Shown: piece by piece, positions 2,752-9,344 of the stretch
How the letters are laid out: every line of letters starts with the position of its first letter
Numbering within the stretch: the stretch's first letter is position 1
IMG/VR virus record: IMGVR_UViG_2675903621_000013
Span: 1 to 11,855 of that record
Direction: 5' to 3' (one strand)
Source: a virus
Taxonomy: Duplodnaviria; Heunggongvirae; Uroviricota; Caudoviricetes
DNA: 11,855 bases
The notes under the pieces: model-generated
Told to the model about the DNA's origin: nothing
What the model saw: the letters and a program-made list of their open reading frames with translations, nothing else
Database searches by the model: none
Position numbers and translations under genes: made by a program

Positions 2752-3162
2752 ATGGCTCAGGTTGCCATTTTTAAACAAATATTCGATAAAGTGCGAAATA
2801 ATTTAAACTATCACTGGTTTTATTCTGAACTAAAACGTCACAATGTCTCACATTACATTTACTATTTAGCCACAGAGAATATTCATCTTGTTCTTGAAAA
2901 CGATAATACGGTTTTAATAAAAGGACAGGGTAAGGTTGTAAATGTAAGATTTTCAAAAAATAAATGCCTTATAGAAGCCACCTTAAAAGGATTCAAATCA
3001 GGAGAGTTATCATTTTACGAATACAGGAAAAATCTTGCTACAGCAGGGGTTTTCAGATGGATTACAAATATCCACGAAAACAAAAGGTATTACTATACCT
3101 TTGATAATTCATTACTCTTTACTGAGAACATTCAGAACACTACACAAATATTTCCGCACTAA
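2752..3162 (+). CDS. DUF1398-like hypothetical protein (ybcV-like moron), AT-rich
   Basis: ORF track gives 2737..3162; the ATG at 2752 (MAQVAIFKQ...) has a GGAAGG Shine-Dalgarno 8 nt upstream whereas 2737 has none, giving 136 aa. The gene is visibly AT-rich relative to flanking phage genes and is transcribed opposite to the late operon. Family assignment is from memory. Confidence 0.65.
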
Positions 3163-3469
3163 ATCATAACGTCCGGTTTCTTCCGTGCCAGAACCGGACT
3201 CGCTGGCATGATGAAATATGTGTACCCGGTAACCCCGGTGTGCATCGTTTTTGATTATTCCCCCACACTTGTGCAGAAGGAGTTCCCCGTCAGGCTACAG
3301 TCATAATTAATGCAAGAGTACAGCGACGATACAGCGCACAGAAATAAATCAGGTATCCATTGACTTCACAAAGACGGTGCATAGCATCGACTGGAGTAAT
3401 TGCGTAAATTGAACTCTTGGCACACTTTAGCCACCGGCGAATCTTCAGCGGATTATCCTTGGCCGGTTT

Positions 3470-3934
3470 TTATCTGAGGCATTGCTCTCGAATGTATAGC
3501 TGTGCCCCTTCAAGTTGTTTTTGCATTATTATCAGTCGCGCTCTGAGGGTGAAATAATCCCGTTCAGCGGTGTCTGCCAGTCGGGGAGAGGCTGCATTAT
3601 CCACGCCGGAGGCGGTGGTGGCTTCACGCACTGACTGACAGACTGCTTTGATGTGCAACCGACGACGACCAGCGGCAACATCATCACGCAGAGCATCATT
3701 TTCAGCTTTCGCATCAGCTAACTCCTTCGTGTATTTTGCATCGAGCGCAGCAACATCACGCTGACGCATCTGCATGTCAGTAATTGCCACGTTCGCCAGC
3801 TTCAGTTCTCTGGCATTTTTGTCGCGCTGGGCTTTGTAGGTAATGGCGTTATCACGGTAATGATTCAGCCCCAGACTAAGCGCACCACAGGCCACCAGCA
3901 GGGCAATGATGACCACGCACAGTACGCGGTTCAT
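3470..3934 (-). CDS. Rz: Rz i-spanin (inner-membrane spanin), lambda-type
   Basis: 154-aa product ...[111 protein letters not shown]... is near-identical to lambda Rz as I remember it. Confidence 0.95.
3532..3714 (-). CDS. Rz1: Rz1 o-spanin (outer-membrane lipoprotein), embedded in Rz in the +1 frame
   Basis: 60-aa product [60 protein letters not shown] has a lipobox (VVGC), a proline run, and near-identity to lambda Rz1; it is nested entirely within Rz. Confidence 0.9.
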
Positions 3935-3935
3935 T

Positions 3936-4034
3936 TCACCACCAGCGTATCTGACCGATGAAATAACCGGAGGCCATAATCACAAACACCAGCCAGATAA
4001 GAATGAACTTCCAGGTGGATAATTTTTCAGCCAT
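3936..4034 (-). CDS. Candidate 32-aa single-pass membrane peptide, translationally coupled to Rz
   Basis: My own translation of the minus strand: ATG GCT GAA AAA ... TGG TGG TGA gives [38 protein letters not shown] Shine-Dalgarno lies 8-9 nt upstream, and the TGA stop sits 1 nt before the Rz ATG. Not in the ORF track (below its length cutoff). Confidence 0.35.
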
Positions 4035-4109
4035 CACTCGAATCTCCCGAATCAGTTTGCTAAAATCAAACACACTTTCTCCTTTGACTTTTCCGGAGTC
4101 AGGAAACAC

Positions 4110-4143
4110 AAAACCCCGCTTGGTGCCAACAAACGGGGTTTTT
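4110..4143. terminator. Bidirectional intrinsic-terminator-like hairpin between endolysin and Rz
   Basis: AAAACCCCG (4110-4118) pairs with CGGGGTTTT (4134-4142) around a 15-nt loop. It is followed by TTTTTACTTTTATT on the plus strand and by TTTTGTGTTT on the minus strand. Confidence 0.5.
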
Positions 4144-4232
4144 ACTTTTATTCACTTACGTTTCGCCAGTTCGCAGGATTTCATGTTATCCGCCCGCGTG
4201 GCCATGCTTTATTTTTCAGCAAAATATTCTGC

Positions 4233-4766
4233 TTATCTGTCGATACCCCAGCACGCCAGCGCGCTCTCCTGGTCACGACGGGATACCTGACCGTAGCAGT
4301 TGTTTGAACGAATACGGCAGTCTCTGCCACCGTCCTTAATCCACCAGCGAATCGCCTCACACGCTCCCCTGCGATCACCTGCATTAATTCGTTTATAAAA
4401 CGTCGACGGGAAACACTTACCGGGACCAATGTTGTACGGACAGAATGACGCGATCCCCGCTTTCTGGGGTTCGCTCAATGGCACTTTGATGTTTTTCTCC
4501 ACCCACGCCAGCGCTTTATCACGCTCAATGGCGTTAACCTGGTCGCATTTTTCCTTCGACAACTTCATGCCCGGAACGACAGGTTTGCCATCCACCATGA
4601 TGGCACCACGGCAGATGGTCCAGATACCTGCACCATCACGGTATGCCGTGGTGTGATTGCCTTCCTTTTCATCCAGAAACTGGTCGAGAATGTCAGGCGC
4701 AGACGCACCAGCGGCAATCAGCGCCAGAACGGCAGCCGACAGGCCGTATTTGATTTTGGTGTTCAT
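4233..4766 (-). CDS. R: SAR endolysin (T4-lysozyme-family muramidase with N-terminal signal-anchor-release domain), phage 21 R / Qin rrrQ type
   Basis: 177-aa product with an Ala/Gly-rich weakly hydrophobic N-terminus (YGLSAAVLALIAAGASA) and an E-x8-D-x6-T catalytic spacing (EGNHTTAYRDGAGIWT), close to the phage 21 R E-8-D-5-T triad. No Shine-Dalgarno upstream; the start is 36 nt after the preceding ORF. Confidence 0.93.
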   Translation of the reverse strand: MNTKIKYGLSAAVLALIAAGASAPDILDQFLDEKEGNHTTAYRDGAGIWTICRGAIMVDGKPVVPGMKLSKEKCDQVNAIERDKALAWVEKNIKVPLSEPQKAGIASFCPYNIGPGKCFPSTFYKRINAGDRRGACEAIRWWIKDGGRDCRIRSNNCYGQVSRRDQESALACWGIDR

Positions 4767-4802
4767 GGATATATTAAATATTCAGCCGCTGTCCCTGGCC
4801 CA

Positions 4803-5360
4803 CTAAATACGCACTTTAAGATAAGTCAGCCCCGGATGAAGCCAGTAAGCCGGCACTTTTTTAAAGGGCGGATTATCAAAATCACGAAGAAGAGCCTCCC
4901 GCACAACTGCATCCTTGTCCGCACCACTGGCCAGCGCTTCAATCTCAGCAGCTATCTGCAGATATCCCATGCAACGGCCAACGCGCTTCATCAGCCCCTG
5001 CTTTTTATTGTTCTTCAGGTAATCAATGGCAAATTCAATGAGCTCCTCACTGTGCTGGTGCGATGGAGGTGTTACTTTCCCATTTTCTGAGATGGTTATT
5101 TTCCCGGCATCACCGGATACAACAAAGGATGGCCGGTTACACTCCCATTCCAGCTCACTGAAATTATCATTATGAATACTGAAACACTCTGCGAGATTTT
5201 TGCTCATCACTTTCCGACAATAATCGTCAAACGCAGCAAACTGCTCATCGCGGCGTTTTTTTTCATCTTCAGAAGGCATCAGCGTCGACAGTTTTTTATT
5301 CAGTTCAGCAATTTCATTTTCCAGGCGACTGAAGCGCTGATTCATTTCTTCATGGTTCAT
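4803..5360 (-). CDS. Hypothetical 185-aa protein inserted between holin and endolysin (same position as ydfR in the Qin prophage)
   Basis: GGGGAGAG Shine-Dalgarno upstream of the ATG at 5358-5360, tightly packed against the holin stop. The N-terminus is coiled-coil-like (EEMNQRFSRLENEIAELNKKLSTLMPSEDEKKRRDEQ). No family recognised by eye. Confidence 0.75.
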   Translation of the reverse strand: MNHEEMNQRFSRLENEIAELNKKLSTLMPSEDEKKRRDEQFAAFDDYCRKVMSKNLAECFSIHNDNFSELEWECNRPSFVVSGDAGKITISENGKVTPPSHQHSEELIEFAIDYLKNNKKQGLMKRVGRCMGYLQIAAEIEALASGADKDAVVREALLRDFDNPPFKKVPAYWLHPGLTYLKVRI

Positions 5361-5644: not shown

Positions 5645-5729
5645 TCTGATAACTCATGCAGGCATCTCAGACGACCCACTGACACTACCGGTGAGTTTAA
5701 CGATACCTTCCATTTGACTGGCTCACTTT

Positions 5730-8196: not shown

Positions 8197-8235
8197 GACA
8201 AAATCAATATAAACAGCCCCTCCGGAGAGGGGCTG
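8197..8235 (-). terminator. Intrinsic-terminator-like hairpin (minus strand)
   Basis: Perfect 9-bp stem CAGCCCCTC / GAGGGGCTG (8214-8222 and 8227-8235) with loop CGGA. On the minus strand it is followed by TTTATATTGATTTTGT. Confidence 0.45.
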
Positions 8236-8626
8236 GAGAGTGGCGCTATGTGCCATTGCATGGTGCCGGGTGCCTCCCGGTGAATTCAGTACCAGCACCT
8301 GAATCCGCGATTATCCCATATACCTACTCGCTGATTGCCCCTCCGCACAGGGGGATTCACCATGCCAGTTTCTTTTAACAAACTCCCCGCAAACCAGACA
8401 ACAGTCAACCGCCTGAATTGTGAAGTATTTAAAAATTTCTCCCGCTAACTGATACCCGGCTAACAGTCTGGCGTTTTCTTTTTCAGCAACGGGAAAGCAA
8501 CAACCACCACACCCGCCACCAGCACACCGTCAGCCAGCACTGACATTATCCGGCTGCTGCAATGCCATTCACAAAAACAGTAAGCTATCACTTTTTACCG
8601 TAACAGGTGATAATCCAGATATGTAT

Positions 8627-9090: not shown

Positions 9091-9167
9091 TGGCGCGTTG
9101 TACTGGATTCGAACCAGTGACCGATTGCTTAGAAGGCAATTGCTCTGTCCGGCTGAGCTAACAACGC
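9091..9167 (-). tRNA. tRNA-Arg (anticodon UCU)
   Basis: Minus-strand 77-nt sequence folds as a canonical cloverleaf: acceptor GCGTTGT/ACAACGC, D stem GCTC/GAGC, anticodon stem ATTGC/GCAAT with loop CTTCTAA, T stem ACTGG/CCAGT with loop TTCGAAT, and an encoded CCA. Confidence 0.9.
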
Positions 9168-9268: not shown

Positions 9269-9344
9269 TGGTGGCCCTTGCTGGATTTGAACCAGCGACC
9301 TGGCGATTATGAGTCGCTCGCTCTCACCACTGAGCTAAAGGGCC
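9269..9344 (-). tRNA. tRNA with CAU anticodon, most likely tRNA-Ile2 (ileX/ileZ-like; lysidine-modified to read AUA)
   Basis: 76-nt cloverleaf: acceptor GGCCCTT/AAGGGCC, D stem GCTC/GAGC, anticodon loop CTCATAA, T stem GCTGG/CCAGC with loop TTCAAAT, encoded CCA. Close to E. coli ileX as I remember it. A Met identity cannot be excluded from sequence alone. Confidence 0.85.

What the first reader, a model, noticed from the sequence alone, without database searches (positions are those of the whole stretch)
3936..4143. Small membrane-peptide ORF translationally coupled to Rz, preceded by a bidirectional terminator inside the lysis cassette
Lambda R and Rz abut one another, but here about 300 bp separate the endolysin stop (4233) from the Rz start (3934). 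That spacer contains a strong hairpin with T-runs on both strands (4110-4143) and a 32-aa ORF ([32 protein letters not shown]) with a GGGAG RBS, whose stop lies 1 nt before the Rz ATG. The peptide is a single predicted transmembrane helix, like small lysis-modulating or membrane-targeting peptides. The spacer also marks a mosaic junction between the phage-21-type holin/endolysin and the lambda-type Rz/Rz1/cos/terminase block.
Basis: seen in the sequence. Interest (0 to 1): 0.5.

Follow-up and report, generated by a model that had tools for sequence, protein, structure and literature searches.

The report
Mobile phage membrane-peptide cassette with antisense unit
The gap between the endolysin and Rz genes of this prophage holds a small mobile cassette: a terminator hairpin, a 45-codon gene for a membrane peptide of unknown function, and probably a short antisense RNA like sar of phage P22; the same cassette sits at many different places in the late operons of temperate phages.

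Summary
The hairpin (4110-4143), the small frame ending 1 nt before the Rz ATG, and the 298-nt R-Rz gap are all present. The gene is real: dN/dS is 0.03-0.27 across about 10 genera, and it matches PHROG 6632 (function unknown). Its conserved start is the GTG at 4073 (45 aa, AAGGAG Shine-Dalgarno (SD) site), not the ATG at 4034. That ATG is Met14 and is invariant.

The hairpin, a second stem-loop that sequesters the SD, and the ORF form one unit of about 215 bp. Its homology begins about 10 nt before the hairpin and ends at the stop codon. Both helices covary. The unit occurs before Rz, between baseplate genes, next to tape-measure and tail-fibre genes, and in a T7-like prophage. Hosts range from Enterobacterales to Pseudomonas and Azoarcus. 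It is therefore a mobile insert, not a part of the lysis machinery.

Codons 3-6 are fixed at synonymous sites, even in phages with 60% GC. On the opposite strand they read TGCTAAAAT, an extended -10. This matches the position of Psar inside P22 ant to within 1 nt. I infer a sar-like antisense RNA of about 73 nt (+ strand, 4073 to about 4145) covering the SD and start codon. That RNA and the peptide's function are untested.

The parts
4110..4143 (.). Helix 1: G+C-rich hairpin flanked by an A-tract and a T-tract. It looks like an intrinsic terminator in both directions and is the left end of the cassette.
   Evidence: 13-bp stem. Covariation: column 39/67 GC:10, AU:9; helix 1: 10 of 13 pairs changed on both sides; 94.7% of cells paired.
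4078..4106 (-). Helix 2: stem-loop in the leader. Its 3' side contains the SD AAGGAG (4084-4079), which pairs with UUUCCU just after helix 1.
   Evidence: Window fold and homologue folds. Stem types seen: CCTTG/CAAGG, CGTTA/TAACG, TGACT/AGTCA, CATG/CATG, CCTG/CAGG.
3936..4073 (-). 45-codon gene (GTG start, TGA stop at 3938-3936) for a tail-anchored membrane peptide, [50 protein letters not shown] 6632; RefSeq WP_000459345.1.
   Evidence: (dN/dS 0.03-0.27).
4032..4048 (-). It is invariant in all homologues and may give a second, 32-aa product.
   Evidence: A truncated Serratia copy keeps only this part.
4058..4066 (+). Predicted antisense promoter: extended -10 TGCTAAAAT, the complement of codons 3-6 (GAT TTT AGC A). 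A weak -35-like TCGAAT lies at 4038-4043, 17 bp upstream.
   Evidence: motif TGNTAANNT in 27/27 representatives; kept in 60% GC phages; codon choice fixed here but free elsewhere in the same genes; same position as P22 Psar.
4073..4145 (+). Predicted sar-like cis-antisense RNA of about 73 nt. It would be complementary to the start codon, SD and leader and would end at helix 1 plus a U-run. Inferred, not observed.
   Evidence: Fold (-23.2 kcal/mol, z = -3.4). Geometry compared with P22 sar. The Rfam sar model matches this strand of the Edwardsiella copy end to end, but below threshold.
3936..3943 (-). GGTGGTGA, from the last two Trp codons plus the stop. It is SD-like and sits 1 nt before the Rz ATG (3934). 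It is the right end of the cassette.
   Evidence: Homology between contexts ends at the stop codon, and the next gene starts 1-7 nt later in most contexts.
4144..4232 (-). The rest of the spacer, which is not part of the cassette. It is the flank of the endolysin gene and is shared with prophages that carry a different insert.
   Evidence: 86% identity to Sakai prophage Sp10 up to the point where the hairpin starts.
3470..3934 (-). Rz (i-spanin), with Rz1 embedded at 3532-3714. This is the downstream neighbour. Only 3871-3479 is lambda-like (94%).
4233..4766 (-). Endolysin of the phage 21 / H-19B type. This is the upstream neighbour.

Best explanation
Window 3936-4150 is one complete copy of a horizontally mobile cassette of about 215 bp that inserts between genes of phage late operons. 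In the direction of late transcription it has four parts. (1) A hairpin that looks like a terminator in both directions. (2) A second stem-loop that locks up the ribosome-binding site. (3) A 45-codon gene for a peptide with an N-terminal amphipathic helix and a C-terminal membrane anchor. (4) Final codons (TGG TGG TGA) that act as a ribosome-binding site for the next gene, here Rz, so that the insert does not interrupt downstream expression. Shown: the gene is under purifying selection, both helices covary, and the unit has moved between unrelated contexts. Inferred: the peptide is made only from read-through late transcripts (Q-antiterminated in this prophage), because the cassette has no conserved promoter on that strand. 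Also inferred: the complement of codons 3-6 is an extended -10 promoter that, together with the hairpin, makes an antisense RNA of about 73 nt covering the start codon and SD. This would be like sar RNA of phage P22, which represses ant from the same position. That RNA would hold down synthesis of the 45-aa form, and might shift initiation to Met14. The peptide's own job is not known. The variety of contexts argues for a general membrane-directed accessory or toxin-like role, not a role specific to Rz.
For: Coding: the 45-aa frame, its GTG/TTG/ATG start and its SD are kept in Escherichia, Citrobacter, Trabulsiella, Yersinia, Edwardsiella, Sodalis, Izhakiella, Brenneria, Pantoea, Symbiopectobacterium, Azoarcus, Pseudomonas phages and marine contigs. 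dN/dS is 0.03-0.27. The match to PHROG 6632 has E = 1e-29 over the full length.
Unit boundaries: the DNA alignment across contexts is alignable only from about 10 nt before the hairpin to the stop codon. The Sp10 comparison breaks at the hairpin.
Structure: 93.8% of cells are paired, against 37-59% when partners are slid. 14 pairs have changes on both sides, reached by 0/500 shuffles.
Mobility: contexts are listed.
Antisense promoter: TGNTAANNT is present in 27/27 representatives. In codons 3-12 the codon choices are Asp GAT 25/25, Phe TTT 19/19 and Ser AGC 26/27. In codons 15 onward of the same genes they are GAT 2/10, TTT 32/71 and AGC 9/37. pS is 0.33 in codons 2-13 and 0.80 downstream. The motif is kept in phages with 60% GC. 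Codons 7-9 and 13 vary freely, as a promoter spacer would.
P22 precedent: arc stop, then sar terminator 15021-15058, then ant ATG at 15091, then Psar 15097-15125 inside ant. The P22 antisense strand reads TTGCTATACT where the cassette reads TTGCTAAAAT, at the same distance from the start codon within 1 nt. Rfam sar aligns end to end with the antisense strand of the Edwardsiella copy (28.6 bits).
Against: No transcript data were found. The Hfq-CRAC list of Sakai sRNAs has nothing in an R-Rz gap, although the one Sakai prophage examined (Sp10) lacks the cassette. EDL933 TSS supplements and Sakai Ribo-seq supplements gave no match to the strings searched.
The -35 region matches the consensus at only 3 of 6 positions. 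The motif in one window is not significant by itself (2 found, 1.8 expected).
The fixed codons could instead serve translation initiation or the internal start at Met14.
The Rfam sar gathering score is not reached and the window copy gives no sar hit. My own model scores the P22 late terminator almost as high as the sar terminator, so common descent with sar is not shown.
G.U counts do not say which strand needs the helices.
A terminator in the middle of baseplate or tail operons should be polar unless those phages antiterminate.
Confidence: 0.5

Rival explanations
1. Lysis-specific reading. The peptide is an accessory of the lysis cassette, translationally coupled to Rz, that modulates lysis timing or spanin function. 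The hairpin is a terminator that makes Rz depend on Q read-through.
For: Most sampled copies lie between an endolysin and Rz with 1-nt spacing, downstream of several unrelated endolysin types. An unrelated 48-aa TM ORF also sits just before Rz in Sakai Sp10. Met14 is invariant, which recalls the dual-start motif of holin genes.
Against: In the one-genome-per-species sample only 3 of 11 copies are next to Rz. The rest are in baseplate, tail-fibre, tape-measure or internal-virion contexts. Homology ends at the stop codon, so Rz is not part of the unit. The peptide matches no holin, antiholin or spanin family.
Confidence: 0.2
2. Cassette without an antisense RNA. The unit is only a terminator or RNA-stabilising hairpin plus a small gene with a structured, weakly translated leader. 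The fixed codons at the 5' end reflect translation-initiation needs or control of the internal start.
For: Apical G.U pairs in helix 1 fit the sense RNA better. The SD is sequestered in the sense-strand fold. The -35 region is poor. No antisense transcript has been reported.
Against: Initiation-region constraints do not explain fixed AGC, GAG, TTG and CGA out to codon 12 with free codons 7-9 between them. They also do not explain GAT TTT kept at 60% GC, or the conserved A-tract beyond the stem on the upstream side. The stem between codons 5-7 and 10-12 predicted is lost in two clades.
Confidence: 0.25
3. Autonomous type I toxin-antitoxin (addiction) module. The peptide is a membrane toxin and the antisense RNA is its unstable antitoxin, and together they stabilise the prophage.
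For: The peptide is small, hydrophobic and single-TM. The SD is sequestered. A cis-antisense RNA over the initiation region is predicted. The unit is spread widely across mobile elements.
Against: The cassette has no conserved sense promoter, so no toxin mRNA is expected in a lysogen. Toxicity is untested. There is no match to known type I families or PADLOC models. The TM segment is C-terminal, behind a 20-residue cytoplasmic helix, unlike most type I toxins (my own knowledge).
Confidence: 0.12
4. Not a gene: a chance ORF in a recombination scar or in the remnant of a displaced endolysin 3' end.
For: The ORF is short, is unannotated in most phage records, and has a few frameshifted copies.
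Against: dN/dS is 0.03-0.27 with saturated synonymous sites. The 45-aa length and the start are kept at 46-69% identity across genera. A PHROG family exists.
Confidence: 0.02

Closest known systems
Phage P22 immI: sar antisense RNA controlling ant (Rfam RF00262; Liao et al. 1987 and Wu et al. 1987, as cited in PMC2629481)
   Same: The order of parts matches: upstream gene stop, terminator hairpin, SD, start codon, and an antisense extended -10 (TGC TA...T) inside codons 3-5. The distance to the start codon is the same within 1 nt. The antisense RNA would be about 70 nt and would cover the SD. Both lie in an insert ('moron') of a late operon (PMC2629481).
   Different: The controlled gene is a 45-aa membrane peptide, not a 300-aa antirepressor, and there are no arc/mnt repressors. 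Sequence similarity is limited to the hairpin and TAGCAA. The Rfam threshold is not reached, and my model does not separate the sar terminator from tR'. The cassette RNA has not been observed.
Type I toxin-antitoxin loci with a 5'-overlapping cis-antisense RNA (symE/symR; also hok/sok, tisB/istR) - from my own knowledge and PMC5415839, PMC2887945
   Same: A small hydrophobic peptide, a structured leader that hides the SD, and a short terminator-ended antisense RNA across the initiation region.
   Different: There is no dedicated toxin promoter and toxicity is unknown. The peptide has an extra N-terminal helix. The unit is embedded in phage late operons in the sense orientation.
Morons of lambdoid late operons (Juhala et al. 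2000; 'ant moron' in PMC2629481; sRNA morons in PMC4104026)
   Same: Extra DNA set precisely between two late genes. It is present or absent among related phages, carries a terminator, and is tolerated in Q-antiterminated operons.
   Different: The classical moron has promoter, gene and terminator on one strand. Here the only predicted promoter-terminator pair is on the opposite strand, and the protein gene rides on the host operon.
P22 sas RNA / sieB-esc, and dual-start holin genes (S21 71/68, lambda S107/S105) - my own knowledge; sas is listed in PMC5415839
   Same: Two in-frame starts about 13 codons apart in a small membrane protein gene. In P22, an antisense RNA can switch translation between starts.
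   Different: Use of both starts is unproven here. There is no homology to holins or SieB.
PHROG 6632 / RefSeq WP_000459345.1 'hypothetical protein'
   Same: The window peptide is a full-length member (E = 1.2e-29; identical RefSeq protein).
   Different: The family carries no function, and the RNA elements and mobility are not part of its description.

Membership tests
PHROG 6632 (phage protein family, unknown function) | Significant full-length match to the 45-position profile | tested here: met
   E = 1.2e-29, residues 1-45 on profile positions 1-45. Divergent homologues score 4e-14 to 4e-23.
Intrinsic (Rho-independent) terminator | G+C-rich stem-loop directly followed by a T-run | tested here: met
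   (- strand). The + strand tail is TTTTTACTTTTATT. The structure is kept through compensatory changes.
Intrinsic (Rho-independent) terminator | Stops RNA polymerase in vitro or in vivo, in either direction | not testable with these tools
   Needs transcription assays or 3'-end mapping.
sar RNA (Rfam RF00262) | Covariance-model score at or above the gathering threshold (43 bits) | tested here: not met
   The window gives no sar hit at E <= 10. The best homologue (Edwardsiella) scores 28.6 bits.
sar RNA (Rfam RF00262) | Antisense promoter inside the first codons of the controlled gene, with the RNA ending at a hairpin upstream of the SD | tested here: met
   Sequence level only. TGCTAAAAT lies at 4058-4066 (+) and the hairpin at 4110-4143. 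The geometry equals P22 within 1 nt.
sar RNA (Rfam RF00262) | The RNA is made and represses translation of the overlapped gene | not testable with these tools
   No expression data were found.
Type I toxin-antitoxin system | Small (<60 aa) hydrophobic peptide with a TM helix | tested here: met
Type I toxin-antitoxin system | Antisense RNA antitoxin pairing with the toxin mRNA | tested here: inconclusive
   Predicted from a conserved promoter motif and terminator. Not observed.
Type I toxin-antitoxin system | Toxin gene has its own promoter, forming an autonomous two-gene module | tested here: not met
   Homology starts at the hairpin. There is no promoter-like site on the sense strand within the cassette.
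Type I toxin-antitoxin system | The peptide is toxic when expressed | not testable with these tools
   Experimental.
Moron (Hendrix/Juhala definition) | Inserted between two genes that are adjacent in related phages | tested here: met
   R and Rz abut or overlap in lambda, P22 and Qin. The same unit sits between other gene pairs.
Moron (Hendrix/Juhala definition) | Own promoter upstream and own terminator downstream of the carried gene | tested here: not met
   For the peptide gene, the terminator is upstream and no sense promoter is present. The definition fits only the predicted antisense unit.
Holin / antiholin / spanin | Homology to a known lysis-protein family, or a lipobox or periplasmic domain | tested here: not met
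   No Pfam, NCBIfam or PDB match. Only three residues (RWW) lie beyond the TM segment.

The most novel reading that the evidence does not exclude
A previously undescribed family of miniature selfish or accessory cassettes that move between intergenic junctions of late operons in temperate sipho-, myo- and podoviruses of Gamma- and Betaproteobacteria. Each carries a sar-like antisense RNA gene back to back with a membrane-peptide gene. The RNA switches the peptide between a 45-aa and a 32-aa form (as P22 sas does for sieB/esc, or as in holin/antiholin pairs) or keeps a membrane toxin silent until late infection.
Probability: 0.3. Interest if true: 0.7.

Novelty: new variant of a known kind. Interest (0 to 1): 0.55.

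Why it matters
The 361-nt spacer query matches 2062 of 5426 complete E. coli genomes, and 871 genomes hold at least 80% of it. It is also present in H-19B and many Stx1/Stx2 phages, yet most phage records leave it unannotated. It could be a clear example of a 'polite' minimal insert: it brings its own structured leader, hands a ribosome-binding site to the next gene, and probably carries a regulatory RNA on the other strand. If the antisense RNA exists, it extends the P22 sar mechanism from one antirepressor locus to a widespread cassette. It would also add a prophage-encoded sRNA and a membrane peptide to Shiga-toxin phages, with possible effects on lysis timing, toxin release or host membrane physiology. 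For annotation, it shows that the R-Rz junction is an insertion hot spot, and that the start codon should be set at the GTG.

Tried and rejected
- Rfam scans of the window and of six homologous loci found no family at threshold for this element. There were only sub-threshold rimP-leader and sar hits on the antisense strand.
- Pas sRNAs (bioRxiv 10.64898/2026.05.13.724894) lie elsewhere: PasA/PasC between the esterase and holin genes, PasB in structural operons. No link was found.
- EcOnc sRNAs of Sakai (PMC4104026, Table S2): EcOnc11 and EcOnc12 looked promising by distance, but EcOnc11 (Sp10) lies 3' of Rz, and Sp10 lacks the cassette.
- Peptide and DNA strings were absent from the Sakai Ribo-seq supplements, the EDL933 TSS supplements and the CRAC supplements.
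- No Pfam, NCBIfam, PADLOC or PDB match.
- A sense-strand promoter within the cassette was looked for and not found.
- A + strand promoter-like site at 3951-3980 is not conserved in homologues.
- An mRNA stem between codons 5-7 and 10-12 is lost in the window clade and the high-GC clade.
- Common descent with the P22 sar hairpin could not be shown: model R1 scores the sar terminator at 19.2 bits and tR' at 18.4 bits.
- K-12 Qin has no spacer.
- 'Remnant of endolysin 3' end' is rejected by dN/dS.

Full report
**1. What is in the sequence**

The lysis genes are on the - strand:
- class II holin of the phage 21 type;
- a 185-aa ORF;
- endolysin, 4766-4233;
- a 298-nt gap;
- Rz, 3934-3470, with Rz1 embedded.

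In the gap, a 13-bp hairpin lies at 4142-4110 between an A-tract and a T-tract. It is the only terminator-like site in 3400-4800. A frame is open from 4109 to the TGA at 3938-3936, and one base later Rz starts. Thirteen codons upstream there is a GTG (4073) with a better Shine-Dalgarno (SD) site, AAGGAG, 5 nt before it. RefSeq's PGAP annotates exactly this 45-aa protein as hypothetical in an identical prophage (WP_000459345.1).

The 361-nt spacer query matches 2062 of 5426 complete E. coli genomes, and 871 genomes hold at least 80% of it. It is also present in H-19B and many Stx1a, Stx2a and Stx2c phages. K-12 Qin, lambda and P22 have no such gap.

**2. Is the small frame a gene?**

Yes.
- Protein searches found about 100 clusters, all named 'hypothetical' or 'phage protein'.
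- A scan of one genome per species found copies at 50-69% identity in Citrobacter, Trabulsiella, Yersinia, Edwardsiella, Sodalis, Izhakiella, Brenneria, Pantoea, Symbiopectobacterium, Serratia and an Azoarcus MAG.
- Cultured phages with a copy include Salmonella SPN3UB, FSL SP-016 and SEN34, and Pseudomonas YMC11/02/R656.
- In all of these the frame begins at a GTG, TTG or ATG with a GGAG-type SD at the position of window 4073, and is 43-48 codons long.
- Pairwise dN/dS is 0.03-0.27, with synonymous sites near saturation.
- The peptide matches PHROG 6632, a 45-position profile of unknown function (E = 1e-29). It matches nothing in Pfam, NCBIfam, PADLOC or the PDB.
- It is predicted as an amphipathic helix (residues 4-17), a break, and a membrane helix (20-44). 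The positive charge is on the N-terminal side and only RWW lies beyond the membrane segment.
A truncated Serratia copy keeps only that 32-codon part. A second, shorter product is therefore possible.

**3. The hairpin belongs to the gene, and the pair is mobile**

Copies from different genera align only from about 10 nt before the hairpin to the stop codon. The flanks are unrelated.

Contexts differ widely:
- endolysins of at least four unrelated types upstream and Rz downstream;
- between a spike-like baseplate protein and a gpW-like wedge protein, as in Yersinia, Pantoea and phage SEN34;
- after a tail fibre gene, after a structural protein, and after a 965-aa DarB-like protein;
- between T7-like internal virion proteins in Azoarcus;
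- after a tape-measure gene, between the tail chaperone and tape-measure genes, and after a tail-region gene (Pfam UCP028589);
- inside the lambda-like tail cluster of a Pseudomonas phage.

In Sakai prophage Sp10 the flank after the endolysin is homologous to the window up to the base where the hairpin begins. A different insert follows: an antirepressor gene plus an unrelated 48-aa TM ORF. The R-Rz junction is therefore an insertion hot spot, and 4144-4232 belongs to the endolysin flank, not to the cassette.

Relative to lambda, homology starts 63 nt inside Rz, at window 3871.

**4. RNA structure**

A covariance model of the leader, re-aligned to 26 distinct copies, gave these results:
- 93.8% of cells are paired, against 37-59% when the partners are slid;
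- 14 of 23 pairs show changes on both sides;
- no shuffle out of 500 reaches the observed covariation.

Helix 1 is the hairpin. Helix 2 lies just before the start codon, and its 3' arm contains the SD. It exists as CCTTG/CAAGG, CGTTA/TAACG, TGACT/AGTCA, CATG/CATG and CCTG/CAGG. In the window, UUUCCU after helix 1 pairs with AGGAGA, and many homologues fold the same way. The ribosome-binding site of the 45-aa frame is therefore normally closed.

**5. A constraint that coding does not explain**

In codons 2-13 the synonymous difference is 0.33. Downstream it is 0.80. The table compares codon choice in codons 3-12 with codons 15 onward of the same genes.

| Residue | Codons 3-12 | Codons 15 onward |
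|---|---|---|
| Asp | GAT 25/25 | GAT 2/10 |
| Phe | TTT 19/19 | TTT 32/71 |
| Ser | AGC 26/27 | AGC 9/37 |
| Glu | GAG 26/27 | GAG 5/14 |
| Arg | CGA 26/27 at Arg12 | CGA 3/28 |

Codons 7-9 and 13 vary freely. GAT TTT AGC is kept even in phages with 60% GC.

On the opposite strand the first fixed block reads TGCTAAAAT. This is an extended -10 element, and the pattern TGNTAANNT holds in 27/27 representatives. The second fixed block lies 17 bp upstream, where a -35 would be, although TCGCAA or TCGAAT matches the consensus at only 3 of 6 positions. A transcript from this promoter would start at about 4073 on the + strand, run across the start codon, SD and helix 2, and end at helix 1 followed by UUUUU. 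That gives about 73 nt, and the fold is more stable than shuffled controls (z = -3.4).

**6. The precedent**

This is the layout of the immI region of phage P22:
- arc stop at 15022;
- sar terminator at 15021-15058;
- ant ATG at 15091;
- Psar at 15097-15125, inside ant;
- sar RNA at 15021-15090 on the opposite strand.

The P22 antisense strand reads TTGCTATACT where the cassette reads TTGCTAAAAT, at the same distance from the start codon within one base. sar RNA controls expression of the antirepressor gene ant (PMC2629481; PMC5415839). The Rfam sar model aligns end to end with the antisense strand of the Edwardsiella copy, but at 28.6 bits against a threshold of 43. The window copy gives no hit. 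My own model finds the P22 sar terminator first in the P22 genome, but scores the late terminator tR' almost as high. I therefore claim the same working plan, not family membership or common descent.

**7. Best reading and its limits**

*Shown:* a real, conserved gene for a small membrane peptide; two covarying helices; and a unit that has moved among late-operon junctions of temperate phages.

*Inferred with moderate confidence:* a sar-like antisense RNA.

*Inferred from the absence of a sense promoter:* the peptide is made only from late read-through transcripts. In this prophage these come from pR' under Q. The conserved ending TGG TGG TGA offers GGTGGTGA as an SD to the next gene, which starts 1-7 nt later in most contexts.

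*Unknown:* what the peptide does. The variety of contexts argues against a Rz-specific role. A toxin-like, lysis-timing or exclusion role would each fit a late-made inner-membrane peptide.

I found no transcript or ribosome-profiling evidence in the papers and supplements I could search.

**8. Novelty**

The protein family is already catalogued but has no function. I found no description of the cassette, its RNA structures, its mobility or the antisense unit. It is best called a new variant of known kinds: an antisense-guarded small membrane-protein gene, built like P22 sar/ant, behaving like a moron, and resembling a type I toxin-antitoxin pair that lacks its own toxin promoter.

Noticed in passing
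window 8205-8394 (-), 9091-9167 (-), 9269-9344 (-): STnc100 sRNA (Rfam RF02076, 132 bits), tRNA-Arg(tct) and tRNA-Met lie in the region upstream of the esterase and lysis genes. This is the usual moron and sRNA site downstream of pR' in Stx-type prophages.
   Followed up: partly
window 4803-5360 (-): A 185-aa ORF of unknown function sits between the holin and endolysin genes. The same slot holds a 114-aa ORF in Stx2_EH2201 and Sakai Sp10, and YdfR in K-12 Qin, so it is another variable insertion slot.
   Followed up: no
L217 (Sakai Sp10, NC_002695.2 1945285-1946277): At the same R-Rz junction Sp10 carries an antirepressor gene (ECs_1965) plus an unrelated 48-aa TM ORF (ECs_1966) that ends 7 nt before Rz. 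This is a second, non-homologous small membrane ORF just upstream of Rz.
   Followed up: partly
window 3872-3934 (-): The first 63 nt of Rz, which encode its membrane anchor, are not lambda-like, whereas 3871-3479 is 94% identical to lambda Rz. A mosaic joint therefore lies inside the Rz gene.
   Followed up: yes
window ~5658-5729: According to a 2026 preprint, the PasA/PasC sRNA genes lie between the sialate esterase and holin genes of such prophages. This short intergenic stretch of the window would be the place. I did not examine it.
   Followed up: no
window ~3400-3470 (+): In Sakai Sp10 an abundant Hfq-bound RNA peak, EcOnc11, lies just 3' of Rz on the antisense strand; the Sp9 peak EcOnc12 was not located relative to Rz. 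I did not examine the equivalent place in the window.
   Followed up: no
L016 (Serratia sp. Ag1) 3010-3111: This is a truncated copy. The hairpin, leader and first 12 codons are missing. The 32-codon part from Met14 directly follows the stop of the spike gene, with a GGAG about 10 nt upstream, so the short form may work alone.
   Followed up: partly
window 3951-3980 (+): A second promoter-like site on the antisense strand (CTGACC N18 CATAAT) lies inside the 3' part of the small ORF. It is not conserved in other clades.
   Followed up: partly
L098 and about 50 similar IMG/VR loci: A common E. coli subfamily ends ...SQLIVAIKG instead of ...GQIRWW. Its leader is different: the SD lies in the loop of a GGCAG/CTGCC stem. 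It keeps helix 1 and the TGCTAAAAT block.
   Followed up: partly
L225 2796-3257 (-): In a marine (TARA) contig the cassette is followed by a convergent gene for an Arc-domain protein. This is of interest given the resemblance to the P22 arc-sar-ant region, but it may be coincidence.
   Followed up: no
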